DNA from: a virus
Taxonomy: Duplodnaviria; Heunggongvirae; Uroviricota; Caudoviricetes
Strand: one strand, 5' to 3'
DNA: 64,000 nt
Virus record (IMG/VR): IMGVR_UViG_3300049811_000196
Coordinates: 1-64,000 of that record
Shown here: positions 13,859-38,585 of the stretch, piece by piece
Layout of the letters: every line of letters begins with the position of its first letter
How positions within the stretch are numbered: position 1 is the stretch's first letter
Notes under the pieces: generated by a model
Databases searched by the model: none
Told to the model about the DNA's origin: nothing
Seen by the model: only the letters and a program-made list of their open reading frames with translations
Translations under genes and position numbers: made by a program

Positions 13859-13897
13859 TTGAACCTCCTTTTTACATAATTATCACAATTTGACCAG

Positions 13898-13982
13898 CGG
13901 AGGATGATGGGATCGAACCATCGCGGCTATTACGCCCTAACACGTTAGCAATGTGTCCCCTTCACCACTTGGGTAATCCTCC
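13898..13982 (-). tRNA. tRNA-Ser (anticodon GCT), class II
   Basis: Acceptor GGAGGAT/ATCCTCC. T-arm GATGG-TTCGATC-CCATC. Loop TTGCTAA. Long variable arm. Confidence 0.8.
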
Positions 13983-14552
13983 ATTTTATTTACGGGAAAT
14001 TATTTTTCTTTATAGTGGTTTATTGCTATCATTATCCATGATACAATAATATCAACAACCGCCAATACTGGTGCCAGAATTAGTACCATAATGGTCTCAA
14101 GACCGGGACTTGTACCCGTAACCCCATCCGTTGATGTTTTACTGTATCTTGTAGTTATTCTCCAAAGACAATAAACGACACAAAAAATATGAAATATCCA
14201 ATACATAAAAAAAATATAAGTAATTTTTATTGATCATTCTATTAAATTCACAATTTTTTAGCACTCTCCGAGATCTTCGATTTCGATATTCTCAAACTTA
14301 ACGATCTCCTTTGAGCAGAATTTAATCGGTGTCATCACAACATCAAATGAAACATCATCATCACCATGACACCCTTTAAAAACAACTAAACCTCTTTTTA
14401 TTTCATTAGTTGGGGATGCTCTATACTTTTTGCAAAGAATAACTGGAGATGTTTGTTTTTTTGATTTAATAAATTTGATGTAGGTGAGTATGGAAAATAT
14501 TGTGAATAACAATAATGATACTATATAAAACATTTTCGTTTAAACATAAATA

Positions 14553-14771
14553 TCACTTCTTCAAAGTTATTTCACACCTTGATGAATTCCATTCGTATGT
14601 AAGTATTTTGGATTTTCTCGCAATTGCGGTTTTTAATACACCATTAAAATCATCGTAAACGATAACCTTCTTCTTATCCTTCACCTCTTTTTCTAACTCA
14701 CGTACCATTTCATCTGTGATTTCAACTTTTGATACTTCATCGGAAGCGTAATGATAATCATAATGTCCCAT
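14553..14771 (-). CDS. small hypothetical protein
   Basis: 72-aa ORF. Confidence 0.3.
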   Translation of the reverse strand: MGHYDYHYASDEVSKVEITDEMVRELEKEVKDKKKVIVYDDFNGVLKTAIARKSKILTYEWNSSRCEITLKK

Positions 14772-14952
14772 AAAAAAATTATTTATTTTTTTCTTCCTGA
14801 TAAATCTATTTCAACAATTTCACCATCTTCGGTTTTGAAAAGTTTGGCGGAATGATCCCTACACATTTCTTTCTCGTTCTTTGTTAATTCCTTCAAAGAG
14901 GATAATAATTTATATCCGGGAAATATTCCGAGATATGTTAACAAATATTTTT

Positions 14953-15029
14953 TTTTCATAAAATATTTTTTGTAGTCGGGACAGGATTCGAACCTATGCC
15001 AGGACGGGGCCCGCCGCTACCCTTGCTCT
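14953..15029 (-). pseudogene. tRNA-like gene with non-foldable anticodon arm
   Basis: Good acceptor (AGTTGGG/CCCGACT), D-arm and T-arm. The 27-nt anticodon region (GGGTAGCGGCGGGCCCC) gives no 5-7-5 arm. Confidence 0.4.
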
Positions 15030-15047
15030 ATCCACTAAGCTACCCAA

Positions 15048-15248
15048 CTATTTTTTATTGTAATACCAACCACTTTCAATCTCCTCTCTAAGTTTACCCT
15101 TTTTATCGTAATATTCCTTTGTGGAATTATCTAACGTTTGCCACTCAATAATTTTTTCCACAAGTTCATTCATTGTATCCCCATATAACACCAATTCCCT
15201 ATCCTCAGTTAAATGTTTGATTTCTAATTTCAATCTTGGTTTTTTCAT
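15048..15248 (-). CDS. small hypothetical protein
   Basis: 66-aa ORF. Confidence 0.3.
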   Translation of the reverse strand: MKKPRLKLEIKHLTEDRELVLYGDTMNELVEKIIEWQTLDNSTKEYYDKKGKLREEIESGWYYNKK

Positions 15249-15251
15249 AAC

Positions 15252-15406
15252 ATAGATTTTGCGATCAAGGACAGGAATCGAACCTGCACGGATTTAAAGA
15301 AATAATCTCCAACTACTCACGTTTGTAGTTTGTCCACCGAGTTCCCCCACTCTATACGTTTCTTCAAGGGTACTTACAGCGCGTCTACCAGTTTCGCCAC
15401 TCGACC
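15252..15406 (-). other. interrupted class-II tRNA-like gene (Leu/Tyr-type D-arm), ~155 nt
   Basis: 5' part GGTCGAG-TG-GCGAAACTGGTAGACGC matches the tRNA-Leu acceptor and D-arm. 3' part GCAGG-TTCGATT-CCTGT then CTTGATC pairs 7/7 with the 5' acceptor. About 65 extra nt lie between. Confidence 0.45.
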
Positions 15407-15670
15407 ATAATTGTAAAAAAATAACTAGGTCAGGAATTTCACCTGAGGCTAACTCACGTTAGCGGACCCGCATTTACTGACGGAACATATCTTTCAGGGA
15501 TCTCACACTTAAGTATTTACCCTACGTATCTCCGGATTTCATGCGGCACTACCACATCTACTGTCTCCCAGTTATTTGTGTGAATATCCCCTGAGCCACA
15601 TCAAGTATCTGTTTCGTTTCTTGCGTAGTTTAAAGGAATTAGTAACAGACTTACCTACTCAGATTTTATT

Positions 15671-15710
15671 CACAAAGGTTTCAATGTTTAACACATTTCA
15701 ATCAAAGAAC
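15671..15710. repeat. ~40-nt repeat, copy 1
   Basis: cacaaaggtttcaatgtttaac(a/c)(c/t)atttcaat(c/a)aaag shared with copy 2. Confidence 0.7.
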
Positions 15711-16276
15711 TATTTTAACCATTTTTTAATTGCTTTATTGCTAACACCGTATTTTCTACCTGTTGCGGAATATCCATTTTGAGATACTTCAGACATTAAG
15801 GTGTCAATATTAGGTCTTTCAACTTTTCTTTTTGACATGTAATTACATGTTTTACATTTTTTACCCCACTTTGATTTTTCACAACCACAATCTTCACATA
15901 GATATTTTTTGGGTTCTTTAATCATTATCCATCTATCTTTTTTTTCATCAAATTCCGAAATTTTATCTTTTATTTTTTCAAAAAATAGATCCGGCGAATG
16001 GTGTTCTCTATGACAATTTGAACAAAAAACATCACATTTTTCAAATTCTTCCAATATAAGTTTCATTGAAGTGTTGCTCAATGTTCTTTGATCTAATTGA
16101 AATTTTTTTGTTTTTGGATCTCGATGGTGAAAATCAAATGCCGCCAAATTTTTATCATATCCGCATTTTTGACATTTTCCTCCTCTTAATAAAATAAGAT
16201 GATACTTTCTTTTAAGTGATCTCATTACTTGGTAATCGTAGGTATTTCTTTGGATTTTCATACCAATAAATACCAA
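15710..16276 (-). CDS. HNH homing endonuclease with C-terminal HTH
   Basis: CQKCGY...FDFHHRDPKTK...CSNCHREHH. C-terminal GRKYGVSNKAIKKW. Confidence 0.8.
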   Translation of the reverse strand: MVFIGMKIQRNTYDYQVMRSLKRKYHLILLRGGKCQKCGYDKNLAAFDFHHRDPKTKKFQLDQRTLSNTSMKLILEEFEKCDVFCSNCHREHHSPDLFFEKIKDKISEFDEKKDRWIMIKEPKKYLCEDCGCEKSKWGKKCKTCNYMSKRKVERPNIDTLMSEVSQNGYSATGRKYGVSNKAIKKWLK

Positions 16277-16312
16277 GTAATTATGAAAACTTACATAATC
16301 TTATGTTTATTG

Positions 16313-16386
16313 TGGACCGAGAGGGACTCGAACCCCCGACTTACGCGTTATGAGCGCGTCGCGCTAACCAACTGCACCATCGGTCC
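16313..16386 (-). tRNA. tRNA-Met (CAT)
   Basis: Acceptor GGACCGA/TCGGTCC. Anticodon arm ACGCG-CTCATAA-CGCGT. Confidence 0.85.
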
Positions 16387-16711
16387 AGTAAATTACTCCT
16401 TATTCTAAAACCCTTTTATTTCGGAGTTAACCTGCTATCTTAATGAGTATTTCGAGGGTTCAGGTTAATAACAACTACCACCTTCTAGATAGGGTATGAT
16501 ATGGTTGTAGTAGTTTCAGTCAATCAACCATCGTCCCTCTATGTTTTTTACCATACACCAACCTAAACTACTCACATCTTAGACTGTGAGATGAGGTAAC
16601 GTTAACGGAATGCCTTCCGTGCAGGGATTTCATGTGTTTATCTGACTTCTCTTTCGAGTTCAGCCCCCGTGTTTAATCAACTCTCATTTGTTCAGTATTA
16701 ATCAGTAGTTG

Positions 16712-17257
16712 TTAGTTATTTTCATCCAAATTAAATGTGATTTTTGTGTACATTAATTCCAAATTATGTTGGATGGTATAGTTTTCAATATTGTATTGGC
16801 ACCTATCACAATTCCATAATGAAAAACGCAAACCCTTTCTGAATTCTATTTCATCATTGAGTTTGATCAATTGTATATAACATTCCAAAGGATTTGGAAG
16901 ATATTTTTTTTCCAACATTTTATTGTGTTCCAAATATTTCCTCCATTTATCATCATTACCATCATCAGGACCGTCGTGATTTACCGAATATGTTGTGGAA
17001 GAAAACCAATCTTCATTCAATCGTTTATTTTCCAAACTTTCTTCTTCGGTGACCTCAATTACTCTATTCGATTTCAACAAATCTGTTGATAACGTTGGCA
17101 GATAATGATTAACAATGTATTCCCCAACAAAATATCCGAGTTGGTAATCCATTGTAAGATTATCCAAATACTTTTGAGTTCTCTCGATACATTCCTGTTT
17201 GTATTCGGGAGTATCCATTCTCTCCAAAAGTTTTTTAAATGATTTTGATCTACTCAT
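16712..17257 (-). CDS. hypothetical protein
   Basis: 181-aa ORF. Confidence 0.4.
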   Translation of the reverse strand: MSRSKSFKKLLERMDTPEYKQECIERTQKYLDNLTMDYQLGYFVGEYIVNHYLPTLSTDLLKSNRVIEVTEEESLENKRLNEDWFSSTTYSVNHDGPDDGNDDKWRKYLEHNKMLEKKYLPNPLECYIQLIKLNDEIEFRKGLRFSLWNCDRCQYNIENYTIQHNLELMYTKITFNLDENN

Positions 17258-17300
17258 AACACAACAAATTTAATGATATTTTTTAATATCCAAAAAAATT

Positions 17301-17340
17301 TCTTCACAGAGGGGATCGAACCCTCACGTTACCTTCAACT
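17301..17340 (-). pseudogene. tRNA 3'-half fragment
   Basis: GAGGG-TTCGATC-CCCTC then TGTGAAG. No complementary 5' acceptor (CTTCACA) within 400 nt. Confidence 0.4.
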
Positions 17341-17633
17341 CTTATTTCGTCTGATAGTTCGACGATACGATTCGTTATGTTTTGCAACACATAACTCATT
17401 TGGTAACCATGTGTCTACCCATTCCGCCATATGAAAAAATCCTAGGAATTTAAATATTGAAATAGTTAGACATTGAAGATACTAGGATTACTCCGTATGA
17501 AGACCGAGATAGAAACAGCATAAATAACCGTAACTAATTCCCAATCCCAGTACACCCTGTCAATTCAGGATTAGTATCTTTATGTGAGCGAGTACTTCGT
17601 ACTAAGCTCTTTAAACCGCTTGACAGACGGTAC

Positions 17634-17673
17634 TCACAAAGGTTTCAATGTTTAACCTATTTCAATAAAAGAG
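17634..17673. repeat. ~40-nt repeat, copy 2
   Basis: Directly 3' of tRNA 17672-17744 on the minus strand. Confidence 0.7.
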
Positions 17674-17744
17674 CGAGGAACAAGGTTCAAACTTGTGACC
17701 CTCACGTTGGTAACGTGATGCTCTATCAACTGAGCTACCCTCGC
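17672..17744 (-). tRNA. tRNA with anticodon ACC (Gly-reading), unusual A34
   Basis: Canonical cloverleaf. Acceptor GCGAGGG/TCCTCGC. Anticodon arm TCACG-TTACCAA-CGTGA. T-loop TTTGAAC. Confidence 0.6.
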
Positions 17745-17967
17745 GTGTCACCCATCTGTGTTTCGGATGGGCTAGATTTTACCAACGTTTTTTCGTATTG
17801 AAAAAACGACTTAACGGTCTTACCCGATTGAAAAAAGTCAAACTACGTGGAGACTCTGTTACCTGTCTTTAACCCTACGAAACCGGCGTTAAGGATGTCC
17901 GGTTTAATACCCGCAACTTTGTTTAAAAAGTATGTTGCCAAACTTTACGGTAACACATAACCGACGG

Positions 17968-18040
17968 AGCCTCCGGTCGGATTCAAACCAACGACATTCG
18001 CATTACAAGTGCGACGCTCTATCAACTGAGCTACGGAGGC
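17968..18040 (-). tRNA. tRNA-Thr (TGT)
   Basis: Acceptor GCCTCCG/CGGAGGC. Anticodon arm TCGCA-CTTGTAA-TGCGA. Confidence 0.85.
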
Positions 18041-18096
18041 ATGGAGGGGGACACGTTATTTATCCGTTTAAGGGACTCCCCCAGACCCATTGAGAG

Positions 18097-18170
18097 AGAG
18101 AGAGACGAGATTCGAACTCGCGACTTTCGACTTGGAAGGACGACGCTCTGACCAACTGAGCTACTCTCTC
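18097..18170 (-). tRNA. tRNA-Gly (TCC)
   Basis: Acceptor GAGAGAG/CTCTCTC. Loop CTTCCAA. One mismatch in the anticodon stem. Confidence 0.75.
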
Positions 18171-18182
18171 TAAAAATCATTA

Positions 18183-18527
18183 TTATAACTTATCGATCTT
18201 CACATCAATCTTTTCAATCTTTTTCTCGTCATCACCCAAAACCAAATTGATTGACCTTTCGTGACCCTTTAATGCTTCTTCATGTGATGTATATCTTTCT
18301 TGATAACCATCATGTTTTCCACCAAAAATCATGGTTTCCCATAATACAGGATCTCCTTCACCACTAAAACGATGATCAATAACCAAAAAAACCGTTGAGA
18401 TCATAACATCACCTATCGTATCCTGTTTTGTTACCCTCGAATTAGTATCACCATACACCTCAGCCAAATCTTCAATAGAAATGGGAAATGGTTTTTTGTT
18501 CTCATCCAATGCATAAAACGTACTCAT
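18183..18527 (-). CDS. hypothetical protein
   Basis: 114-aa ORF. Confidence 0.4.
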   Translation of the reverse strand: MSTFYALDENKKPFPISIEDLAEVYGDTNSRVTKQDTIGDVMISTVFLVIDHRFSGEGDPVLWETMIFGGKHDGYQERYTSHEEALKGHERSINLVLGDDEKKIEKIDVKIDKL

Positions 18528-18542
18528 AAATTTTGTTTTTTG

Positions 18543-18618
18543 TAGTCCCCATCAGATTTGAACTGATGACCTATTGCTTGTAAAACAATTGCTCTAAACC
18601 AAACTGAGCTAGAGGACT
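18543..18618 (-). tRNA. tRNA-Val (TAC)
   Basis: Acceptor AGTCCTC/GGGGACT. Anticodon arm ATTGT-TTTACAA-GCAAT. Confidence 0.85.
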
Positions 18619-18958
18619 AAATGTATTTTAAAAATGACCAAAACTTTCTTTTTTTCAAGTAATCAAAATCCGCATCGTTTTCATGTGCCTCTTTTTCAAA
18701 AGATATGTTTCTATATGCTTTACTTGGTGTTATAATCATTCTAATTAAAAATTCAATAAGATACCAAACATAAAATGGTATAACCAACATTTCAAGTTGT
18801 TGCCTCATGTGAATTTTTTCATGATTAATTGTTTGGTTTAATCTCTCCTTACTTACACGATCAGAAAATGATTTCTTTATGAATATAAATGGAAATAATG
18901 CAATACCAATAACATTTTTACCAAAAATCCATTTATCAATAATCTTAACAATACTCAT
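18617..18958 (-). CDS. hypothetical membrane protein
   Basis: 113-aa ORF with hydrophobic segments. Confidence 0.35.
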   Translation of the reverse strand: MSIVKIIDKWIFGKNVIGIALFPFIFIKKSFSDRVSKERLNQTINHEKIHMRQQLEMLVIPFYVWYLIEFLIRMIITPSKAYRNISFEKEAHENDADFDYLKKRKFWSFLKYI

Positions 18959-19159
18959 AATAGTTTTTTTTTAAAAAATTTTTGTATATAAGACATTATC
19001 TCACCATACCTCAGTACTCGGCTATATACGGTCTTTTAGCGTCCTGTTTCCCTTGGCATCTCCCCCAATCAAGATAACCGTTCCTAGAGCTTGTATGGGG
19101 TAATGTTTGTAGGTTATGCTTCACAACATAACATTCTTATATACAATATTTCAATTTTG

Positions 19160-19242
19160 TAGAAGAGGAGAGATTTGAACTCCCGAATTCCGAAGAAAAA
19201 TGTTTTACAGACATTCTGCTTTGACCGCTTGCATACTCTTCT
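19160..19242 (-). tRNA. tRNA-Tyr (GTA), class II
   Basis: Acceptor AGAAGAG/CTCTTCT. Anticodon arm AATGT-CTGTAAA-ACATT. Long variable arm. Confidence 0.85.
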
Positions 19243-19394
19243 ATTTATCCATAATAAAATAAAATCGATCAAACAAAAATAAGAAATACCGAAAGGTCTT
19301 CGTCTCTTCTAGCTGGCCCACTATGTCCGACTCAAACGGAAATGCTAGCAACCCGATCCAGCTCGTCCTAAATTTAGGATTTCGGTATTTCTAT

Positions 19395-19486
19395 GATACT
19401 GCCTTGGACTCGAACCAAGAGTCAGGGTAAAGGAAGTACTTTTAATCGGAACACTACTTTGTAAACAAGAGTAGCCTGTCCAGTAC
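19395..19486 (-). pseudogene. tRNA-like element (~91 nt), non-canonical
   Basis: T-arm CTTGG-TTCGAGT-CCAAG. Acceptor pairs 6/7. Stem CTACT/AGTAG encloses an 11-nt loop containing TTTACAA. No standard D-arm. Confidence 0.3.
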
Positions 19487-19582
19487 TTTCCTACGCCCCG
19501 TCGCTGTCTCCACCAGCGGCCAGTATTTTTCGAACAGAACGCGTATTCTGAACGTTACCATTTGCAAAAAATTGAAAATGTG

Positions 19583-19654
19583 CGTCTCCGATAGGACTCA
19601 AACCTATAACCTCAACCTTAACAGGGTTTTGCTCTATCATTGAGCTACGGAGAC
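19583..19654 (-). tRNA. tRNA-Asn (GTT)
   Basis: Acceptor GTCTCCG/CGGAGAC. Loop CTGTTAA. Confidence 0.8.
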
Positions 19655-19663
19655 AATTTAATA

Positions 19664-19891
19664 TTATTTCAATTCTTTAACTTCAACAATATCATACCCA
19701 TCAAATTCACCATCAACAAATTCAAAACTAATATCAATGTTTTTAGATCTTAAACATTGATTAACCAAATCAATGATTTCAAAATGATTTGTGTCATGAT
19801 AAATTTTAAAAGTATCCATTTTTTGAAATTTAAATGATAAAAAATATAATACTTGTGGGAGTTGAACCCCAAAGATCGATGCACCGATCAC
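19664..19891 (-). CDS. small hypothetical protein
   Basis: 75-aa ORF. Confidence 0.3.
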   Translation of the reverse strand: MIGASIFGVQLPQVLYFLSFKFQKMDTFKIYHDTNHFEIIDLVNQCLRSKNIDISFEFVDGEFDGYDIVEVKELK

Positions 19892-19925
19892 CCTCCTGTA
19901 CGTCCGTCCAACCGAACTTACGAAG
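19851..19925 (-). pseudogene. degenerate tRNA-like element
   Basis: GGGG-TTCAACT-CCC T-arm-like segment and D-arm-like GTTCGGTTGGACGGAC. No consistent cloverleaf. Confidence 0.25.
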
Positions 19926-20085
19926 TAATATGTAAATCAATAGGGGAATATTGCAAATATCCTAGTACAGGTACTCCTATTGAAGTTTTTGGTACCCCTA
20001 ATCAGACTCGAACTGATAACGTTTCAATGTGTTCCACGGATTCTAACTCCGCAAGCTTTTCCAATTTGCTCATAGGGGTATTAAA

Positions 20086-20769: not shown

Positions 20770-20821
20770 ATTAATGAGATATGAAATACTCTCTGAAAAG
20801 TAAAGTCGAACTTAATTTTTG

Positions 20822-20894
20822 TTAGGGTGGTCAGGCTCGAACTGACGGCCTCATCTTCCCAAAAGATGAAATCTACCAACTGATATACACCCTA
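20822..20894 (-). tRNA. tRNA-Pro (TGG)
   Basis: Acceptor TAGGGTG/CACCCTA. Anticodon arm CATCT-TTTGGGA-AGATG. Confidence 0.85.
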
Positions 20895-20953
20895 ATTTTA
20901 ACCGCGTTAAAAAGGTATCGGTTTCTGAACTAAGTTACCGAAAAACGTTCGCG

Positions 20954-32007: not shown

Positions 32008-32243
32008 AATTTTTTAATTATGGTTTTACATTGTTGGTGAGAAAGTTCTAAACATCCAAAGGATATTCCAAAGTCTGTTCTTATCATTTTAAGGTCTTTA
32101 CCTAAATCAACCCTATCATATGATGATTTGTATGCCTCTTTGACATGTGAATAGAGAACCCTGTTATTTTTAAAAACAATTTCTTTTGTGGTTTCATCAT
32201 AATAGATGGGTAAACCTTCCTTAGAAAAATCTAACACAATCAT
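32004..32243 (-). CDS. small hypothetical protein
   Basis: 79-aa ORF whose start overlaps the upstream stop. Confidence 0.3.
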   Translation of the reverse strand: MIVLDFSKEGLPIYYDETTKEIVFKNNRVLYSHVKEAYKSSYDRVDLGKDLKMIRTDFGISFGCLELSHQQCKTIIKKL

Positions 32244-32358
32244 ATAACAATATCATTGATTTTATTACACATCAAAGGAAAGACATTATTGCGAATACAC
32301 AAAATATTTTTCTTGATTTTTTTAAAAAAAAAATATAAAAGTAAATATGTTTTACTTG

Positions 32359-32442
32359 TCCCATTGGTCAGATTCGAACTGACGATGTTTATTTCAGATC
32401 TCATGAGAATCTTGTCTTCGACCAACTTGACAACACAATGGG
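32359..32442 (-). tRNA. tRNA (CAT) with extended variable arm
   Basis: Acceptor CCCATTG/CAATGGG. Anticodon arm AGATT-CTCATGA-GATCT. Confidence 0.65.
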
Positions 32443-32506
32443 AAAAATGGGGTCCGATATCCGCGTTTCCATCTCACTCGGACCAACATGAGCTTCCGAC
32501 GGGTTG

Positions 32507-32583
32507 TGTGTACAACGAGATTCGAACTCGCACCTAACTAGATCCACAATCTAGCCCCGAAGACCAATACGGGTTCTGTACAC
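32507..32583 (-). tRNA. tRNA-His (GTG)
   Basis: Acceptor GTGTACA/TGTACAC. Anticodon arm CTAGA-TTGTGGA-TCTAG. Confidence 0.8.
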
Positions 32584-32591
32584 CATGTAAG

Positions 32592-32662
32592 AGGTAGTTG
32601 AGAGGATCGAACTCCCGTAGTGGGATTTGCAGTCCCATACCTAACCACTCGGTCAAACTACC
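32592..32662 (-). tRNA. tRNA-Cys (GCA)
   Basis: Acceptor GGTAGTT/AACTACC. Anticodon arm TGGGA-CTGCAAA-TCCCA. Confidence 0.85.
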
Positions 32663-32814
32663 ATATTCTTTAATTCTTTCAAAGAAACTAATACACTCTC
32701 AAGCCATTCAATAATATCAGGACAAGAAAACTCATTCTGTTTGTAATTGAATAACTCTTCTTCGGTAATACGTATCTGTTCATCTAATGTAATGAAGATA
32801 TACCTCCTTTTTGA

Positions 32815-33189
32815 TTAATTCTCTTTGTTAACAATCCATCTCAACATTAATTTTGAATCCATGTGTGAATGGAAATCAGCATCGCCCATGTCATCAACCG
32901 GTACTTCAAAATAAATGGTTTCATCGTTTAACATGGTTAAATAATATGCCATTTTTTTTCTGATGTGTGTTAATGTTGCCTTTGGATTTTCTTTAAGTAA
33001 TCCTTTTTTAATTTCGTTTAAAGTCATCATAGTATTTGTTTTATAATTAGTTATTAATAGAGGAATATATGGTGAATATATTTTTGATGGATGCATTAGA
33101 GCATCGATAACCTCTTTATATGTTATGTGGTTTTTCATAGTATCTGTTTTTTTGATTTTCAACCGCGTCAATAAACCATTTCGGTGCAT
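32815..33189 (-). CDS. hypothetical protein
   Basis: 124-aa ORF overlapping 33116..33490 by 74 nt. Confidence 0.3.
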   Translation of the reverse strand: MHRNGLLTRLKIKKTDTMKNHITYKEVIDALMHPSKIYSPYIPLLITNYKTNTMMTLNEIKKGLLKENPKATLTHIRKKMAYYLTMLNDETIYFEVPVDDMGDADFHSHMDSKLMLRWIVNKEN

Positions 33190-33490
33190 TTATTTCTTCA
33201 CAAATTTTTTCAAATTCTATTTTTGGTAAAATTCCTTTTGCTCTATCTTCAGCATACATTTTAATATGAAGATTTATAGAACTTTTTGTTTTCATCAATG
33301 ATTGATATATGTTTGGATGTCTGGTGGGTTTTAATACCCTCTTACCTCGACTATCGACATTATAAAATAACGTTACTCCATCAATACCATTTCTATCAAA
33401 AACAACTTCTTCAAAAGGTTTACCATCGAAATTAAACTTCTTTCTTAACGAGAAATACCATTTAATCTGTTCAAGAACTTCTTTTTTCAT
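33116..33490 (-). CDS. hypothetical protein
   Basis: 124-aa ORF. Confidence 0.3.
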   Translation of the reverse strand: MKKEVLEQIKWYFSLRKKFNFDGKPFEEVVFDRNGIDGVTLFYNVDSRGKRVLKPTRHPNIYQSLMKTKSSINLHIKMYAEDRAKGILPKIEFEKICEEINAPKWFIDAVENQKNRYYEKPHNI

Positions 33491-33491
33491 G

Positions 33492-33564
33492 ATCCCCCAT
33501 TTGGATTCGAACCAAAACGATCAGACTCAAATTCTGATATGCTAGCCAGTTACATCATAGGGGA
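33492..33564 (-). tRNA. tRNA-Gln (TTG)
   Basis: Acceptor TCCCCTA/TGGGGGA. Anticodon arm TCAGA-ATTTGAG-TCTGA. Confidence 0.85.
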
Positions 33565-33570
33565 ATGTAG

Positions 33571-33642
33571 TACCCTCGAAGAGATTCAAACTCCTGCTTT
33601 CCGGTCCGTAGCCGGAGGTTCTATTCACTAAACTACGAGGGC
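33571..33642 (-). tRNA. tRNA-Arg (ACG)
   Basis: Acceptor GCCCTCG/CGAGGGT. Anticodon arm TCCGG-CTACGGA-CCGGA. Confidence 0.85.
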
Positions 33643-33649
33643 AAGTAGA

Positions 33650-33934
33650 CTACCACGATATTTTAACATATTCACGGAGCCTGCTTTGTTTTTTTTCAAT
33701 TGTGATGTTTTTGTTCATCCATTGTTTCCTGTTTTTGGAAACCAATTTCCAAGATGGATGTCTAATTTCATTTTTTTTGAATGTACTACCATAAAACTTT
33801 TTTTTGGTATTACACCCCTTGTTAAATGAACACCGATCACATTTGATTTTTCCTTTTCTGTTTAAACTTATTTTATAAAGTTTGGAAAACAGATTTCGAT
33901 TTGTTGTTTCTTTTAATTCCTGTTTGTTTTTCAT
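33650..33934 (-). CDS. small basic Cys-containing protein
   Basis: CDRCSFNKGCN. Confidence 0.3.
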   Translation of the reverse strand: MKNKQELKETTNRNLFSKLYKISLNRKGKIKCDRCSFNKGCNTKKKFYGSTFKKNEIRHPSWKLVSKNRKQWMNKNITIEKKQSRLREYVKISW

Positions 33935-33977
33935 TCTTGTAACTTTTGTTACAAGAGGTCATAGATTTTTTTCATGT

Positions 33978-34466
33978 TTATTGATTTAAAAGGTTTATGA
34001 TATTTTCTTTAACTCCTTTCGATTTTATTCCCAATCCATATGGTGACCAAATGAAATTATCCAATAGAAATTGTTCCATGTCCAAGTCATCAACAGCGAC
34101 CCAATTTGTTATTCCCAAATGAGTGTTTTCTTCCAGAAATGTTTTAATTTCTTTTGATCTTATCTTTTCAAGATTTAATCCTCCCCTAAAAGATGGTGTA
34201 AATCCAATAGGTCTTTTTTTAATTCCCCTATTAATAAACATATCACCCATTTCATTTAAAGAACAATGAAATCTCCAATCAGACGATATAACGATTTCAC
34301 AATCTGTCGCATCTATGATTTCATTTAATACCGCAATTGCGTCTTCATCAAAAGGATCAAAAGTTGCGTCAATATGAGACGGATTTGTTTTTCTAACTTC
34401 AAACCGTAATCCCCATTGTTCTTCCAAACATATGACGCCATCATGATCTAAAAATAATACTTTCAT
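33978..34466 (-). CDS. HAD-superfamily phosphatase-like protein (polynucleotide 3'-phosphatase-like)
   Basis: Motif I VLFLDHDGVI. Motif IV VAVDDLD. Confidence 0.45.
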   Translation of the reverse strand: MKVLFLDHDGVICLEEQWGLRFEVRKTNPSHIDATFDPFDEDAIAVLNEIIDATDCEIVISSDWRFHCSLNEMGDMFINRGIKKRPIGFTPSFRGGLNLEKIRSKEIKTFLEENTHLGITNWVAVDDLDMEQFLLDNFIWSPYGLGIKSKGVKENIINLLNQ

Positions 34467-34469
34467 AAA

Positions 34470-35105
34470 TTAATTATTTAATGTGCTGGGATAATAAAGC
34501 AACGTCGGATTTTTCTTCTGAATATCCAATTCAGGATATTTCTTTTTGAATTCCATTACGTCAAATCTTTCTGTAATTAAATGTACCCCATTTTTTGTTG
34601 GGATTACAGTTAAAATCTTATTCCCTTCCGGTCTGCAATTATTGTTGATATATGTAGATACTTCTTCAATAATGTTTTCATCTTTTGTGTCGATATCAAC
34701 AATCCATCTTTTTTCCGTTGTTTTTATTTGACCAACAACGGTATCGAATAACCCTTGCTGACGAATAACCCCATTTTTTATTCTTTCCGCCAATACCACC
34801 ATCATATCCAATGAAACATCTTTATGATTTTGTTTTTGAATATGGATATATGCTCTGGCGGAAAAGAATTCACATAACTTAACGATTTCATCATATCTTT
34901 TTTCAAGATATTCAATGGATTCAATCGTATATGTTTTTATCGTTCTGACAGATTGATGATTATCTCTTTCACCTTCTGGTTGATCTTTTTTTCTCTTAAA
35001 AACATATAACATATAGAAATCACCTTCGTCCTCAAAATTCAATAATGGTTTGATTAAATCAATATTGTTTATGATTTCCATTGAGTTTTTCTGTTGTGTT
35101 TCCAT
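34470..35105 (-). CDS. hypothetical protein
   Basis: 211-aa ORF. Confidence 0.4.
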   Translation of the reverse strand: METQQKNSMEIINNIDLIKPLLNFEDEGDFYMLYVFKRKKDQPEGERDNHQSVRTIKTYTIESIEYLEKRYDEIVKLCEFFSARAYIHIQKQNHKDVSLDMMVVLAERIKNGVIRQQGLFDTVVGQIKTTEKRWIVDIDTKDENIIEEVSTYINNNCRPEGNKILTVIPTKNGVHLITERFDVMEFKKKYPELDIQKKNPTLLYYPSTLNN

Positions 35106-35296
35106 GTTTTATATGATCTCATTTTAAATTTGTAAATATATTTTTTAGAGGGTTTTGATCCCGCATGTTTTCTTGGAAAATAGTATCCACCTTTTTCGAA
35201 ATAAAGATCGTAAAATTCTTCGTTGGTGAAAAACTTATATTCCCTTCTGTCTGTGGTTATTTTGGCAACCTTACCATTTTTCTTTTGTGGTTTCAT
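35069..35296 (-). CDS. small basic hypothetical protein
   Basis: 75-aa ORF. Confidence 0.3.
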   Translation of the reverse strand: MKPQKKNGKVAKITTDRREYKFFTNEEFYDLYFEKGGYYFPRKHAGSKPSKKYIYKFKMRSYKTWKHNRKTQWKS

Positions 35297-35354
35297 TTTG
35301 CTTTGATTTTATTCAAAGCATGTCATATTTCTTTTTCATTTTTAATTATTTTGG

Positions 35355-35425
35355 CACGAGCATCCGAATTCGAATCGAAACCTTGACTTTTGGAGAGTCG
35401 TATGCTACCGTTACACTATGCTCGT
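35355..35425 (-). tRNA. tRNA-Trp (CCA)
   Basis: Acceptor ACGAGCA/TGCTCGT. Loop CTCCAAA. T-arm TTCGA-TTCGAAT-TCGGA. Confidence 0.7.
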
Positions 35426-35454
35426 GTGTGTTTATTTAATTTAAAAGTTTAAAG

Positions 35455-35544
35455 TGGGGGCGACAGGATTCGAACCTGCGATCGAGAACATTATCTCTCT
35501 AGATTAAAAGTCTAGTACATTGGGCCAACTATGCGAACGCCCCC
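35455..35544 (-). tRNA. tRNA-Lys (TTT) with long extra arm
   Basis: Acceptor GGGGGCG/CGCCCCC. Anticodon arm CTAGA-CTTTTAA-TCTAG. 15-nt variable hairpin GAGA-TAATGT-TCTC. Confidence 0.7.
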
Positions 35545-35600
35545 ATTTTCCGTTTGTCTGATTTGTCACTTTCCATATTCTTTATTTTTTAAGATTTAAT

Positions 35601-36017
35601 TCAGAGAGAAACCTGAATTTTATTTTTTTCAAACCATTCTTCAAGTGTGAATACGTTGTATTCAATTCCCTGAATATCATATTTGTCAAAAGAATACCCC
35701 ATGAATTCAACTTGTTCAAAAAATGTTTCTCCAATTGTTTTATGTTCTTTCCAATCTTTATCCTTGAAATATTCCAATACATCAAAGACAAATTTCTCTT
35801 TGCTTTCATATTCAAATGGAATAACAACATCAGATGAATATGTGTATCCATCACCGATTGTATGACATAAGATTAGTTTCATTTTATACTGTTTTAGTTG
35901 TAAATGATGCGGTCTATTACGGATTCGAACCGAAATTACTGCATAGACAGTGCAGCGTGGTACCATTACACTAATAGACCATTTATTGTTTTTTAAAAAT
36001 TTTTGGCGGATTTTCAC
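35601..36017 (-). CDS. hypothetical protein
   Basis: 138-aa ORF. The alternative-frame ORF 35582..35854 is less likely. Confidence 0.35.
   Translation of the reverse strand: MKIRQKFLKNNKWSISVMVPRCTVYAVISVRIRNRPHHLQLKQYKMKLILCHTIGDGYTYSSDVVIPFEYESKEKFVFDVLEYFKDKDWKEHKTIGETFFEQVEFMGYSFDKYDIQGIEYNVFTLEEWFEKNKIQVSL
35910..35980 (-). tRNA. tRNA-Asp (GTC)
   Basis: Acceptor GGTCTAT/ATAGACC. Anticodon arm CTGCA-CTGTCTA-TGCAG. Confidence 0.8.
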
Positions 36018-36930
36018 CGTAACTTCTTATCCATTTTCTAATTGCGTTATCACTAACGCCATATTTTTTTCCAGTACCAACATACCCCAATTCTTTAATT
36101 TCTTTAATAAGAATTTCAAGTGATGGTCTAAAGACCTTTCTTTGTTTTAATTTTGCACATGTGCAGCAAATCCGATCTTTTGATTTAATTATGTTTCCAC
36201 AAGGACAAAAATATGTTTTACGAATTCTTTGTTTTTTTTCTTTTTTACTAAAAATACCAAACGAATAATTTTCTTTTTTATCGGCAGAATTTAAAATTTT
36301 TTCCAATTCAAAAAGAAAAGTGTTTAAATTTTTTTTAACCTCACTTTCTGTAACCCTAACAACAACCCACCCATTTTCTTTTAGGTGTTTATCTTTTTTT
36401 TCATCTTGATTTTTTCTTTCCTCAAGTTGATGTTGTGATCCGTCTATTTCTACCGCAACTTTTTCATTTAAAAAAGCAAAATCAATAAAAAAGGGGAATA
36501 CCGACCATTCTCTTTCAATTCTATATTTTTCACCCCAATTCTCCAATGTTATCTTATCTAAAAATAATCTTTCAGGGTATGATAGATTTTTTTTCCTCCA
36601 TGCTGTTTGTTCGGGATTATTTTTCATGAACAACAAACGCTTTTCTCTCAATTTTTGCTTACTTTCTTCAGTATGTTTAAATGGGTATTTTATAATAGAT
36701 ACCCTGCGAGCATCAGATTGGTTTCTTATCTTATCTGCTAATAGTTTTCTTATTGTTTCAGAGTGAATTTTAAATTTTTTCCTTAGATCATTAATAGAAA
36801 ATAATTGATTCACATACAAATCAATTATTTCGTTTTTAACTGAATTAAGATGTTTACATGCTTTTTCGTGAGATAACATTTGTTTACCCTTTAATTTAAA
36901 CTCTTTTTTACATATTGAACACTTTTGCAT
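35983..36930 (-). CDS. DUF559/Vsr-like (PD-(D/E)XK) homing endonuclease with Zn-ribbon and C-terminal HTH
   Basis: FIDFAFLNEKVAVEIDGSQH...GWVVVRV. CPCGN...CCTCAK. GTGKKYGVSDNAIRKWI. Confidence 0.7.
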   Translation of the reverse strand: MQKCSICKKEFKLKGKQMLSHEKACKHLNSVKNEIIDLYVNQLFSINDLRKKFKIHSETIRKLLADKIRNQSDARRVSIIKYPFKHTEESKQKLREKRLLFMKNNPEQTAWRKKNLSYPERLFLDKITLENWGEKYRIEREWSVFPFFIDFAFLNEKVAVEIDGSQHQLEERKNQDEKKDKHLKENGWVVVRVTESEVKKNLNTFLFELEKILNSADKKENYSFGIFSKKEKKQRIRKTYFCPCGNIIKSKDRICCTCAKLKQRKVFRPSLEILIKEIKELGYVGTGKKYGVSDNAIRKWIRSYGENPPKIFKKQ

Positions 36931-36992
36931 TTGAAGTATTTATAATAAATACTTCGAACCGTCATCAAGTCATATAACTCAATAAAAAATAG

Positions 36993-37064
36993 TATCCCTA
37001 CACAGAGTTGAACTGAGATCTTAACATTGAAAATGTTACGTGCGAACCGTTACACCATAGGGAC
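36993..37064 (-). tRNA. tRNA-Glu (TTC)
   Basis: Acceptor GTCCCTA/TAGGGAT. Anticodon arm TAACA-TTTTCAA-TGTTA. Confidence 0.8.
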
Positions 37065-37075
37065 ATTAAAACATG

Positions 37076-37147
37076 TGGTAAGAGGCGGGATCGAACCGCC
37101 GACCAGATCATCTTCAGTGATCCACTCTACCGCTGAGTTACCTTACC
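37076..37147 (-). tRNA. tRNA-Phe (GAA)
   Basis: Acceptor GGTAAGG/TCTTACC. Anticodon arm GATCA-CTGAAGA-TGATC. Confidence 0.85.
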
Positions 37148-37161
37148 ATATTATTTTTTTG

Positions 37162-37242
37162 TTGGCACGGAGGGATTTGAACCCACGTTTTCAACACCGC
37201 TACAAGTTCTCCATCTTATCAGGATGGGCTGAGTACGTGCCA
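37162..37242 (-). pseudogene. tRNA-Ile (GAT)-like gene without canonical D-arm
   Basis: Perfect anticodon arm CCATC-CTGATAA-GATGG and acceptor TGGCACG/CGTGCCA. Only 8 nt between acceptor and anticodon stem. 24 nt between anticodon arm and T-arm. Confidence 0.4.
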
Positions 37243-37276
37243 ATCTCCATTATGTCAAAGAACCAAAGTTCAAAAG

Positions 37277-37350
37277 TGGACACGGTGGGATTCGAACCCT
37301 ACGATAAGCCACTGGGTGGGGCCGGCAACCAACCACCGCATCGTGCCCAA
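37277..37350 (-). pseudogene. degenerate tRNA-like element
   Basis: Acceptor TGGGCAC/GTGTCCA and GGG-TTCGAAT-CCC. Other arms do not fold. Confidence 0.3.
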
Positions 37351-37419
37351 AATAATTTCGTGTCTGTAGAACCTATATATTTCTACACTTAGAGTTCTAA
37401 TGTAGGTTAGAACAACGTG

Positions 37420-37494
37420 TGGACCGAGTGGGTATCGAACCCACCTCACTCTCCTTGCAAGGGAGAATCGCCAATCCGTGGTACATGTCAGCCC
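37420..37494 (-). tRNA. tRNA-Ala (TGC)
   Basis: Acceptor GGGCTGA/TCGGTCC, including G-U pairs. Anticodon arm TCTCC-CTTGCAA-GGAGA. Weak D-arm. Confidence 0.65.
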
Positions 37495-37506
37495 AAAAAC
37501 AAAAAA

Positions 37507-37535
37507 CCTCGGAATTTTTTGTTCCGAGGTTTGTT
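37507..37535. terminator. rho-independent terminator hairpin
   Basis: cctcggaa tttttt gttccgagg followed by T's. Confidence 0.6.
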
Positions 37536-37798
37536 TTACTTAAAGATCTATGTTTTCTTAAATCTTTTCTGTATAAACAGTTCGGAACAAGGCAATATCA
37601 TCCTGCTTCGCCCATTCACAACGAATAATAAATGACATTTTATGTTGGTACTGTTTCATTTGAAAAATTTAAGTTTTATTTCTTTTACAAAGATATATAT
37701 AAATATTGTAAAAACAAACAAAATTCAAAAAATATTTTTTTTGTGTGGATCATTCCGGGATCGAACCGGAGACATGGACATTTATAATTATAAAATTG

Positions 37799-37870
37799 TG
37801 ATTCCAGTGGGATTCGAACCCACGTAAATACTTTTAGAGAGTACTGTTTTAACCACTAAACTATGGAATC
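37799..37870 (-). tRNA. putative amber-reading tRNA, anticodon CTA
   Basis: GATTCCA-TA-GTTT-AGTGGTTA-AAAC-A-GTACT-CTCTAAA-AGTAT-TTAC-GTGGG-TTCGAAT-CCCAC-TGGAATC-A. All arms canonical, U33, A37. Confidence 0.7.
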
Positions 37871-38572: not shown

Positions 38573-38585
38573 TTTTTCAAAGAAC

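What the first reader, a model, noticed from the sequence alone, without database searches (positions are those of the whole stretch)
13898..37870. 24-kb tRNA island with endonuclease genes abutting tRNA genes
About 25 minus-strand tRNAs lie between four HNH and one DUF559 endonuclease genes. The 3' end of an endonuclease gene repeatedly sits within a few nt of a tRNA 5' end. 35983 starts 2 nt after tRNA-Asp. 29696 starts 16 nt after tRNA-Ser. 37856 overlaps tRNA(CTA) by 15 nt. 15710 and 20086 sit next to tRNA-like genes. The island also carries many broken or odd tRNA-like copies. This pattern fits endonucleases that home to or cleave near tRNA genes and drive duplication or decay of tRNA copies.
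Basis: partly seen in the sequence, partly recalled or inferred. Interest (0 to 1): 0.7.

Follow-up and report, generated by a model that had tools for sequence, protein, structure and literature searches.

The report
Homing endonucleases nested among phage tRNA genes
A large T4-like phage carries a cluster of about 28 tRNA genes colonised by five selfish DNA-cutting enzyme genes that end right at the start of a tRNA gene, an arrangement already known from phages T5 and T4.

Summary
There are 27 minus-strand tRNAs, plus one tRNA-Arg(UCU) split by a group I intron. Four HNH nucleases and one DUF559 nuclease lie among them. Four of the five ORFs end -15 to +16 nt from a tRNA 5' end.

Inside the window this abutment is not specific to endonucleases: ordinary small ORFs abut tRNAs just as tightly. 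The association shows up across genomes.

- Four enzymes share a C-terminal Zn-ribbon/HTH module. In IMG/VR, 77 of the 80 best loci with this module lie in tRNA arrays, against 7 of 36 control loci.
- 18 of 49 such ORFs read into the next tRNA and stop there.
- The fifth enzyme type is followed by tRNA-Ser(UGA) in all five close relatives.
- Related arrays differ in which sites are occupied.
- ORF 20086-20769 is a full-length homologue of T5 F-TflIV, and T5's tRNA region looks the same.

T4 SegB explains the logic: homing into tRNA clusters, hairpins over start codons, and RNase P cutting the mRNA at its stop codon.

The odd tRNA-like copies are mixed. One is a spliceable intron-containing tRNA, five are tRNA-like RNAs, and one probable broken tRNA brackets an endonuclease plus an amber-suppressor tRNA.

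Verdict: new members of a known kind, of moderate interest.

The parts
29592..37870 (-). Upstream half of the tRNA island. It holds 15 ARAGORN tRNAs, three endonuclease genes and small ORFs.
13897..21705 (-). Downstream half of the tRNA island. It holds 12 ARAGORN tRNAs, the intron-containing tRNA-Arg, three tRNA-like RNAs and two endonuclease genes.
37856..38515 (-). F-TflIV-like HNH endonuclease with the C-terminal Zn-ribbon/HTH module. ATG is at 38515. Its TAG stop lies at positions 13-15 of tRNA(CUA).
   Evidence: phrog_10822 at 3.5e-45; alignments; sequence
37798..37870 (-). Amber-suppressor-type tRNA(CUA). It is the best-scoring tRNA in the window (73.4 bits) and is overlapped by 15 nt by the endonuclease ORF.
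38596..38622 (-). Probable 5' remnant (acceptor strand, U8A9, D-arm-like hairpin) of a tRNA broken by the endonuclease + tRNA(CUA) cassette. The same bases form an 11-bp terminator-like hairpin, so the reading is ambiguous.
   Evidence: (0.2% of shuffles)
37747..37779 (-). Orphan 3' tRNA remnant: a perfect 5-bp T stem, a TTCGATC loop and an acceptor strand ATGATCC that is complementary to 38616-38622.
35983..36930 (-). DUF559/Vsr-like (PD-(D/E)XK) nuclease head fused to the same C-terminal Zn-ribbon/HTH module. It stops 2 nt before tRNA-Asp.
   Evidence: Pfam DUF559 at 1.4e-13; PDB 3hrl at 1.2e-4
35909..35980 (-). tRNA-Asp(GUC), directly downstream of the DUF559 endonuclease.
29696..30253 (-). 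HNH_4 endonuclease with an N-terminal HTH. This is a different architecture from the other four. It stops 16 nt before tRNA-Ser(UGA).
29592..29679 (-). tRNA-Ser(UGA), the conserved downstream partner of this HNH_4 type in five of five close relatives.
20086..20769 (-). Full-length homologue of T5 F-TflIV (hegA): N-terminal HTH, HNH, Zn ribbon and C-terminal HTH. It stops 6 nt before tRNA-Leu(UAG).
19990..20079 (-). Class II tRNA-Leu(UAG). ARAGORN detects it but Rfam does not.
15710..16261 (-). HNH endonuclease of another subfamily (phrog_2255) carrying the same C-terminal module. No tRNA follows it directly.
20953..21330 (-). tRNA-Arg(UCU) gene interrupted between positions 34 and 35 by a 305-nt ORF-less group I intron (20993-21297). 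The exons are 21298-21330 and 20953-20992.
   Evidence: Rfam Intron_gpI 44.3 bits, E 6.6e-10; the spliced product is a canonical 73-nt tRNA; the same intron family sits in bacterial tRNA-Arg(UCU) genes
19395..19526 (-). tRNA-like RNA with acceptor, D and T arms and a roughly 75-nt expanded anticodon arm.
   Evidence: (z -2.7)
17300..17437 (-). tRNA-like element with an insertion.
   Evidence: (tRNA model 19.8 bits)
15262..15409 (-). tRNA-like element with a Leu-type D arm and a T arm, carrying a roughly 75-nt insertion.
29225..29337 (-). tRNA-like element with a long anticodon arm and a 9-nt loop.
37270..37342 (-). Weak tRNA-like element with a canonical T loop.
38509..38533 (-). Hairpin holding the start codon of 37856-38515. 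Similar start-site hairpins lie at 30238-30296, 20753-20790, 16241-16274 and 36933-36955.
   Evidence: z -1.9 to -5.9
37504..37532 (.). Strong bidirectional intrinsic-terminator-like hairpin. Others on the minus strand lie at 21864-21895 and 13377-13398. A promoter-like site (11 of 12 matches) lies at 21795-21823, ahead of tRNA-Leu(UAA).

Best explanation
The island is a T5/T4-type phage tRNA gene cluster colonised by free-standing homing endonuclease genes.

Four of the five genes share one C-terminal Zn-ribbon plus helix-turn-helix DNA-binding module. They combine it with three different nuclease heads: two HNH subfamilies and one DUF559/Vsr-like PD-(D/E)XK head. The fifth is an HNH_4 enzyme with an N-terminal HTH.

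Each gene fills an inter-tRNA spacer. It has a short leader whose hairpin holds the start codon. Its reading frame ends at, or runs into, the 5' end of the next tRNA.

Inferred mechanism, by analogy with T4 SegB and T5 F-TflI/II/IV:
1. The genes are co-transcribed with the tRNAs.
2. Expression is kept low by start-site occlusion, and by RNase P cleavage at the tRNA 5' end, which cuts the mRNA at or before its stop codon.
3. During co-infection the enzyme cuts endonuclease-free tRNA clusters at or near tRNA genes.
4. Recombinational repair copies in the endonuclease gene together with its adjacent tRNA gene.

Shown here: the identity of the enzymes, the anatomy, the family-wide tRNA-array association, the variable occupancy of sites, and tRNA remnants next to two cassettes. 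Inferred: cleavage, co-transcription, RNase P effects and homing.
For: - Enzyme identity.
- Shared C-terminal module.
- End-to-end homology of 20086-20769 to T5 F-TflIV.
- The T5 tRNA region has the same anatomy. Its hegC/F-TflI gene overlaps tRNA-Ser2 by 14 nt, small ORFs abut tRNAs, and tRNA-like stable RNAs are annotated.
- 271 IMG/VR relatives carry the module. 77 of the best 80 loci have tRNAs within 3 kb, nearly all on the same strand. The figure is 7 of 36 for relatives of a neighbouring island gene.
- 18 of 49 unique module-bearing ORFs overlap the next tRNA, against 12 of 217 control ORFs.
- 15 of those 18 stop at a TAG inside the tRNA. Five use U8-A9-G10 and two use the anticodon of tRNA-Leu(UAG).
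- The HNH_4 type is followed by tRNA-Ser(UGA) in 5 of 5 close relatives.
- Occupied and empty sites: L017 versus L052, and L001 versus L315. The endonuclease-adjacent tRNA is much more diverged than the flanks.
- HNH and Vsr-like heads occur on a near-identical binding module at the same site (L013 versus L010).
- The homologue in the cultured Leptolyngbya phage Lbo-JY46 sits in a tRNA array, with tRNA-Asp the next gene 95 nt downstream.
- Start-codon hairpins are present on all five genes.
- Known biology of SegB, and the processing idea for the F-Tfl enzymes: PMC2330249 and PMC13096335.
Against: - No cleavage site is known for any window enzyme.
- No close relative of this phage was found, so none of the window's own five sites has an empty-site comparator.
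- Within the window, ordinary ORFs abut tRNAs as tightly as endonucleases do.
- Orthologues at about 50% identity sit beside many different tRNA isotypes, so target specificity is unclear.
- Endonuclease-adjacent tRNAs do not have altered T loops more often than other tRNAs (20 of 26 versus 312 of 364, p 0.25).
- 15710-16261 is not followed by a tRNA.
Confidence: 0.75

Rival explanations
1. Passive accumulation. tRNA islands are dispensable, recombination-prone regions that tolerate any selfish or accessory ORF. The endonucleases do not recognise tRNA genes, and the abutment is only tight phage gene packing.
For: - Non-endonuclease ORFs abut tRNAs equally tightly in the window.
- In related loci, 40 of 217 control ORFs lie within -60 to +30 nt of a tRNA.
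- There is no T-loop 'immunity' signature.
- Orthologues lie next to many different isotypes.
Against: - The module-bearing family is almost confined to tRNA arrays, 77 of 80 loci against 7 of 36 controls.
- That holds even when the nuclease head is swapped.
- The HNH_4 type keeps tRNA-Ser(UGA) as its partner while its upstream neighbours change.
- The characterised relatives, T5 F-TflIV and the functional analogue T4 SegB, are site-specific enzymes of tRNA regions.
Confidence: 0.12
2. Domesticated role. The endonucleases are kept because they benefit the phage, for example by amplifying or reshuffling tRNA genes to escape tRNA-targeting host defences, as shown for T6 SegB.
For: - SegB drives amplification of a tRNA-Tyr segment, and the SegB family is tRNA-associated (PMC13096335).
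- The island also encodes RNA-repair-type and tRNA-maturation proteins (HAD_SAK_2, CCA-adding enzyme).
- One endonuclease is linked to an amber suppressor tRNA.
Against: - There are no tandem amplified segments or recently duplicated tRNAs in the window.
- The idea is compatible with, rather than an alternative to, selfish homing.
Confidence: 0.1
3. The endonucleases are intron-encoded. They would lie inside group I introns that split tRNA genes, so the 'odd tRNAs' would be exons.
For: - A real group I intron splits tRNA-Arg(UCU) in the same island.
- Bacterial tRNA introns sometimes carry HNH or PD-(D/E)XK endonuclease genes (PMC13011429).
- tRNA remnants bracket 37856-38515.
Against: - The tRNA-Arg intron holds no credible endonuclease ORF.
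- Sensitive Rfam scans of the regions around four of the five endonuclease genes find no intron core; the flanks of 35983-36930 were covered only by the less sensitive 28-kb scan, which also missed the real intron.
- There is no room for a ribozyme core between ORF ends and the next tRNA (gaps of -15 to +16 nt).
- Complete tRNAs flank the ORFs.
Confidence: 0.03

Closest known systems
[quoted passage not shown]
   Same: - 20086-20769 is a same-length homologue of F-TflIV (227 aa, 34% identity) with the same N-terminal HTH, HNH motif, Zn ribbon and C-terminal HTH.
- 37856-38515 is a more distant member.
- The T5 region shows the same mosaic of tRNAs, small ORFs that abut tRNAs, endonuclease ORFs overlapping a tRNA 5' end, and tRNA-like stable RNAs.
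   Different: - This is an unrelated T4-like (gp20-type portal) phage with no DNA similarity to T5.
- The window also has a DUF559/Vsr-like head and a second HNH subfamily on the same C-terminal module.
- One endonuclease is linked to a suppressor tRNA.
- The window's enzymes have not been assayed.
Phage T4/T6 SegB, a GIY-YIG homing endonuclease in the tRNA gene cluster
   Same: - It is a free-standing endonuclease gene inside a tRNA cluster.
- Its stop codon sits at the 5' end of the next tRNA, so RNase P processing cuts the mRNA there.
- A hairpin covers its start site.
- It cleaves inside tRNA genes of endonuclease-free relatives and co-converts the flanking tRNA genes.
- The family is widely associated with tRNAs, with no isotype preference (PMC2330249; PMC13096335).
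   Different: - The catalytic fold differs: GIY-YIG versus HNH or PD-(D/E)XK.
- The DNA-binding module differs: NUMOD3 versus Zn-ribbon/HTH.
- No sequence homology was seen.
- SegB's recognition of the T-loop motif was not mirrored here by altered T loops.
Modular phage homing endonucleases such as I-TevI, and nuclease genes at boundaries of genetic exchange between phages (PMC10448857)
   Same: - A nuclease head joined to a separate Zn-finger/HTH binding domain.
- Recombination breakpoints at the head/binding-domain junction. L010 and L013 share DNA only from the C-terminal module onward.
   Different: These genes are free-standing in tRNA spacers, not intron-encoded. Heads of two unrelated folds are exchanged on one binding module.
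Bacterial group I introns in tRNA-Arg(UCU) genes
   Same: - The same conserved core, and insertion in the anticodon loop.
- 83 of 120 bacterial core matches are called as intron-containing tRNA-Arg(tct), or as its ambiguous Ser(gct) call.
- They share 72-78% identity with the window's intron and exons over 117-214 nt, and up to 96% over shorter core stretches.
- Such introns are reported in Bacteroidota (PMC13011429).
   Different: Here the intron is in a phage-encoded tRNA and has no endonuclease ORF. The library search found no paper describing one in a phage tRNA gene.

Membership tests
F-TflIV (T5 hegA)-like HNH endonucleases | Full-length sequence homology to T5/BF23 F-TflIV | tested here: met
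   20086-20769: tblastn gives 99% coverage at 33-34% identity to T5/BF23 hegA, and BLASTP gives E 2e-39. 37856-38515: E 7e-18. Both match phrog_10822 over its full length.
F-TflIV (T5 hegA)-like HNH endonucleases | HNH catalytic motif | tested here: met
   The motif ELHHxDGN...N...LCPNCH aligns with that of F-TflIV. Pfam HNH/HNH_3 hits are weak and below the curated cut-off. The PHROG HNH families match strongly.
F-TflIV (T5 hegA)-like HNH endonucleases | C-terminal Zn ribbon plus helix-turn-helix | tested here: met
   CxC...CxxC followed by GxKYGVSDNAIRKW aligns with the F-TflIV C-terminus. The T5 record notes LuxR- and Fis-type HTH InterPro matches. No structure was predicted here.
F-TflIV (T5 hegA)-like HNH endonucleases | Site-specific DNA cleavage | not testable with these tools
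   This needs purified protein and substrate DNA.
Free-standing homing endonuclease gene | Presence/absence polymorphism at a fixed site between related genomes | tested here: inconclusive
   Met for family members in other phages: L017 versus L052, L001 versus L315, and L171-173 versus L175/176. For the window's own five sites no close relative exists.
Free-standing homing endonuclease gene | Not inside an intron or intein | tested here: met
   No intron core was found around the five ORFs. Four were covered by sensitive small-region scans, and 35983-36930 only by the less sensitive 28-kb scan. The ORFs are flanked by complete tRNAs.
Free-standing homing endonuclease gene | Cleaves the endonuclease-free allele and is copied in by repair | not testable with these tools
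   This needs cleavage and co-infection assays.
DUF559 / Vsr-like PD-(D/E)XK endonuclease | Match to Pfam PF04480 above its curated cut-off | tested here: met
   35983-36930 residues 134-211 score 51.1 bits against a cut-off of 20.6. PDB 3hrl, 'endonuclease-like protein', matches at E 1.2e-4.
SegB (GIY-YIG) family | GIY-YIG catalytic domain | tested here: not met
   No GIY-YIG family appears among the Pfam or PHROG hits of any of the five proteins. They work like SegB but are not members.
Group I intron in a tRNA anticodon loop | Match to Rfam RF00028 | tested here: inconclusive
   44.3 bits, below the gathering score of 50, but E 6.6e-10 with all of the model aligned and the canonical P7 strands AGACUA...UAGUC.
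Group I intron in a tRNA anticodon loop | Exons join into a canonical tRNA, with U before the 5' splice site and G as the last intron base | tested here: met
   Joining 21330-21298 to 20992-20953 gives a 73-nt cloverleaf tRNA-Arg(UCU). No other Arg(UCU) gene is present in the island.
Group I intron in a tRNA anticodon loop | Self-splicing | not testable with these tools
   This needs in vitro transcription with GTP.
Stop-codon-recoded (TAG-reassigned) phage | In-frame TAG codons inside long conserved genes | tested here: not met
   Only antisense or spurious frames contain internal TAGs flanked by at least 60 codons. TAG ends 6 of 41 long ORFs.

The most novel reading that the evidence does not exclude
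The mobile unit is an endonuclease-plus-tRNA cassette, not the endonuclease gene alone. The endonuclease gene lacks its own 3' end and is welded to the tRNA downstream. The pair then moves between phages as one piece, lands in or beside resident tRNA genes, and leaves remnants. On this reading phage tRNA arrays, and even an amber-suppressor tRNA, are assembled and spread as cargo of homing endonucleases. The conserved Zn-ribbon/HTH module would be a dedicated tRNA-gene-recognition domain that at least three nuclease heads have adopted.
Probability: 0.35. Interest if true: 0.55.

Novelty: new member of a known kind. Interest (0 to 1): 0.35.

Why it matters
The endonuclease/tRNA arrangement first described in coliphages T5 and T4 turns out to be a general feature of large uncultivated phages.
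- One DNA-binding module marks at least 271 such genes in IMG/VR, almost all of them inside tRNA arrays.
- That gives a ready-made panel for finding what these enzymes recognise in tRNA genes.
- It also allows a test of whether tRNA arrays grow by homing, and whether such enzymes help phages escape tRNA-targeting defences, as recently shown for SegB.

The window also holds two things that annotation pipelines would miss or mislabel. One is a phage tRNA-Arg(UCU) hidden by a group I intron. The other is a suppressor tRNA that ARAGORN labels 'Pyl'.

Tried and rejected
1. T-loop immunity. I tested whether endonuclease-adjacent tRNAs have mutated T loops, as a SegB-type target would predict. They do not: 20 of 26 canonical against 312 of 364, p 0.25.
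2. Flanking duplicates. In five checked loci the endonuclease lies between two tRNAs of the same isotype, and in a sixth (L036) both copies lie downstream. The copies are only 59-68% identical, no more than any two tRNAs.
3. Decayed copies. The window's tRNA-like elements score within the tRNA-versus-tRNA background against every window tRNA.
4. Binding-module tree versus tRNA isotype. The tree gives no clean partition. Orthologues at about 50% identity sit beside different isotypes.
5. Further group I introns. The other structured gaps (15249-15709, 16387-16711, 17258-17670, 17745-17965, 29268-29591, 38573-38789) gave none in small-region Rfam scans. The first 28-kb scan had missed the real intron because of speed filters.
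6. TAG recoding, suggested by tRNA(CUA), was rejected.
7. Close relatives of the window for empty-site comparison.
   - Megablast against phages found only a tRNA-Asn fragment.
   - The AAA-protein anchor gave three loci that share only two genes with the window.
   - An exact tRNA-Asp 26-mer gave nothing in metagenomes.
   - Relatives of ORF 34470-35105 are in unrelated contexts.
8. The 49-nt repeat (15660-15708 and 17624-17672) and the TTCTTTGA motif were not explained.
9. The 5' remnant at 38596-38622 first looked like a clean tRNA half. It is also an 11-bp terminator-like hairpin. I keep it only as 'probable' after a shuffle test.

Full report
**What is in the window**

ARAGORN finds 27 tRNA genes, all on the minus strand, between 13897 and 37870. 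Rfam's tRNA model confirms 23 of them above its gathering score. They cover all 20 amino acids and include a tRNA with anticodon CUA.

The island is split in two by a plus-strand block of structural-looking genes at 23262-29267. The rest of the window encodes a T4-type portal, a large terminase, a major head protein and a CCA-adding enzyme. This is therefore a large T4-like phage. It has no close DNA relative among deposited phages.

**The endonucleases**

| ORF | Type | Evidence |
|---|---|---|
| 29696-30253 | HNH_4 with an N-terminal HTH | |
| 35983-36930 | DUF559/Vsr-like |; PDB 3hrl, |
| 15710-16261 | HNH | PHROGs, |
| 20086-20769 | HNH | PHROGs, |
| 37856-38515 | HNH | PHROGs, |

Four of them (15710, 20086, 35983, 37856) share a C-terminal module. 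It is a CxxC...CxxC ribbon followed by RKVxRP...GYxxTGxKYGVSDNAIRKWxK. At the DNA level the four copies are only about 65-70% alike, so they are old paralogues and not recent duplicates.

**Checking the distances**

The stated distances are exact: +2 nt to tRNA-Asp, +16 nt to tRNA-Ser(UGA), a 15-nt overlap with tRNA(CUA), and +6 nt to the tRNA at 19990-20079. That last tRNA reads as a class II tRNA-Leu(UAG). ORF 15710 is the exception, with no tRNA-like element within 299 nt downstream.

Inside the window the abutment is not special to endonucleases. Every small ORF that precedes a tRNA ends -2 to +55 nt from it. The window alone therefore cannot separate 'tRNA-targeted' from 'tightly packed'.

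**Evidence from other genomes**

I searched IMG/VR with the shared C-terminal module and found 271 relatives.
- Of the 80 best loci, 77 carry tRNAs within 3 kb. Almost all are on the same strand, in arrays of up to 20.
- As a control I used relatives of a neighbouring island gene (34470-35105). These have a tRNA within 3 kb in 7 of 36 loci.
- Among 61 unique module-bearing ORFs, 49 have a downstream tRNA in the locus, and 18 of those 49 overlap it. Only 12 of 217 other ORFs do so.
- In 15 of the 18 overlaps the stop codon is a TAG inside the tRNA. Five use the conserved U8-A9-G10. Two use the anticodon of tRNA-Leu(UAG) itself.

The fifth enzyme type (29696-30253) behaves the same way. All five relatives at 63-68% identity are followed 1-5 nt later by tRNA-Ser(UGA), whatever lies upstream. 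Three of the 46% relatives abut tRNA-Thr at +0.

A homologue of the DUF559 enzyme in the cultured Leptolyngbya phage Lbo-JY46 also lies in a tRNA array. tRNA-Asp is the next gene, 95 nt downstream.

**Occupied and empty sites**

- *L013/L016/L017 versus L052/L056.* In L013/L016/L017 an HNH gene sits between tRNA-Arg(UCU) and tRNA-Leu(UAG). In the syntenic arrays L052 and L056 those two tRNAs are 7 and 63 nt apart, and the endonuclease sits after tRNA-Asp instead. The flanks are 87-95% identical. The tRNA next to the endonuclease is only about 70% identical or cannot be aligned. The adjacent tRNA therefore travels with the endonuclease gene.
- *L010 versus L013.* L010 carries a Vsr-like head and L013 an HNH head at the same site. 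Their DNA homology (93%) begins only at the C-terminal module.
- *L001 versus L315.* L001 is a 73% relative of the window's AAA protein. It carries a 748-nt segment that its relative L315 lacks. The segment consists of a 5' remnant of a tRNA-Ser-like gene, a leader, a different HNH gene and a complete tRNA-Ser(UGA).

**What is already known**

- ORF 20086-20769 aligns end to end with T5 F-TflIV (227 aa each, 34% identity, E 2e-39).
- The annotated T5 tRNA region has the same anatomy. tRNAs are interspersed with small ORFs. The hegC/F-TflI gene overlaps tRNA-Ser2 by 14 nt. Several 'tRNA-like stable RNAs' of unknown function are annotated.
- T4 SegB is a GIY-YIG enzyme in the tRNA cluster. It cuts at the 3' ends of tRNA genes in endonuclease-free relatives. 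A hairpin covers its start site. RNase P processing of the next tRNA cuts its mRNA between the last sense codon and the stop codon. The same control by transcript processing was proposed for the F-Tfl enzymes (PMC2330249).
- SegB homologues are widely associated with tRNAs and can amplify tRNA genes (PMC13096335).

The window fits this picture.
- All five start codons lie in or next to hairpins, with z scores from -1.9 to -5.9.
- Strong terminators at 37504-37532, 21864-21895 and 13377-13398 delimit long tRNA/ORF transcription units. A promoter-like site at 21795-21823 lies ahead of tRNA-Leu(UAA).

**The odd tRNA-like copies**

- *Intron-containing tRNA.* 20953-21330 is a tRNA-Arg(UCU) split between positions 34 and 35 by a 305-nt group I intron (Rfam 44.3 bits, E 6.6e-10). 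The joined exons form a canonical tRNA. The same intron core occurs in many bacterial tRNA-Arg(UCU) genes, including those of Bacteroidota (PMC13011429).
- *tRNA-like RNAs.* Five elements keep acceptor and T arms but have expanded middles. They resemble the T5 tRNA-like stable RNAs. They are not decayed copies of neighbouring tRNAs.
- *A probable broken tRNA.* A perfect T-arm/acceptor fragment at 37747-37779 lies 18 nt after tRNA(CUA). Its acceptor strand is fully complementary to GGATCAT at 38616-38622. That 7-mer is followed by U8-A9 and a D-arm-like hairpin, just upstream of the endonuclease leader. The combination appears in 0.2% of shuffles. The same bases also form a terminator-like hairpin, so I rate the split tRNA as probable, not certain.

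**Verdict**

The interpretation, endonucleases that home into tRNA clusters, is supported by homology and comparative evidence but not by any cleavage data. The claim that they drive duplication or decay of tRNAs has only limited support. The system is a new set of members of a known kind.

Three points are less familiar:
- how widespread the shared binding module is;
- its use by unrelated nuclease folds at the same site;
- the evidence that the endonuclease and the adjacent tRNA move as one cassette.

Noticed in passing
window 20953-21330 (-): tRNA-Arg(UCU) is interrupted by a 305-nt ORF-less group I intron. Default ARAGORN and the 28-kb Rfam scan both missed it. The same intron family is common in bacterial tRNA-Arg(UCU) genes (83 of 120 core matches). 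A library search found no paper describing such an intron in a phage tRNA gene.
   Followed up: yes
window 37798-37870 (-): tRNA with anticodon CUA (ARAGORN calls it 'Pyl') is the best-scoring tRNA in the window. The genome shows no sign of TAG recoding, and TAG ends 6 of 41 long ORFs, three of them endonuclease genes. The closest relatives of the adjacent endonuclease (L078/L080/L081) also have a tRNA(CUA) next door, on the opposite strand.
   Followed up: partly
window 54449-57433 (+): The T4-type portal gene (gp20) carries an intein (Intein_splicing, residues 109-481) that contains an HNH endonuclease domain. This is a second, unrelated class of mobile element in the same phage.
   Followed up: partly
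window 15262-15409, 17300-17437, 19395-19526, 29225-29337, 37270-37342 (-): tRNA-like RNAs that keep acceptor and T arms but have 40-75-nt expansions in the anticodon-arm region. They resemble the T5 'tRNA-like stable RNAs'. Their function is unknown.
   Followed up: partly
window 15660-15708 and 17624-17672: A 49-nt repeat, 86% identical, follows the stop of endonuclease 15710 in one copy and the 3' end of tRNA-Gly(ACC) in the other. Each copy leads into about 250 nt of GC-richer, structured-looking sequence and then a tRNA-like element. There is no Rfam match.
   Followed up: partly
window 33978-34466, 22294-22839, 22832-23185, 13397-13858, 6498-7967: RNA-related accessory genes lie in and around the island: a HAD domain of 'Swiss Army Knife' RNA repair proteins, a class II aminoacyl-tRNA-synthetase-like fragment, a YspA/SLOG protein, an RNaseH-like PF04308 protein and a CCA-adding enzyme.
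   Followed up: no
window 35454-35544 (-): tRNA-Lys(UUU) is 91 nt long with a long variable arm, which is unusual for a class I tRNA. Three tRNAs with anticodon CAU are also present (16312, 30450, 32358).
   Followed up: no
L013 and L016, tRNA-Leu(UAG) at 3163-3236 and 1260-1333: The endonuclease ORF reads 36 nt into the tRNA gene and uses the tRNA's own anticodon TAG as its stop codon. In five other loci the stop is the conserved U8-A9-G10.
   Followed up: yes
L010 vs L013; L012/L019 vs L022: At one and the same tRNA site, related phages carry either an HNH head or a DUF559/Vsr-like head on a near-identical C-terminal binding module. For L010 versus L013, DNA homology starts at the domain junction.
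   Followed up: yes
L002 10001-11376: The closest IMG/VR relative of the AAA gene (82% identity, 251-kb contig) is full of frameshifts. This looks like an error-prone assembly rather than recoding. No tRNAs were detected in its 21 kb.
   Followed up: partly
window 38545-38565 (-) and L078 ~2465-2490: A shared motif, TCGAACCnTCGAAC(C)TTTT, lies upstream of the start-codon hairpin of 37856-38515 and of its closest relative. It may be a regulatory or promoter element.
   Followed up: no
L190 and L193 (IMG/VR): A group I intron core related to the window's is preceded by what looks like coding sequence and followed by a tRNA-like 3' end. Other phage tRNA genes may therefore carry group I introns.
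   Followed up: partly
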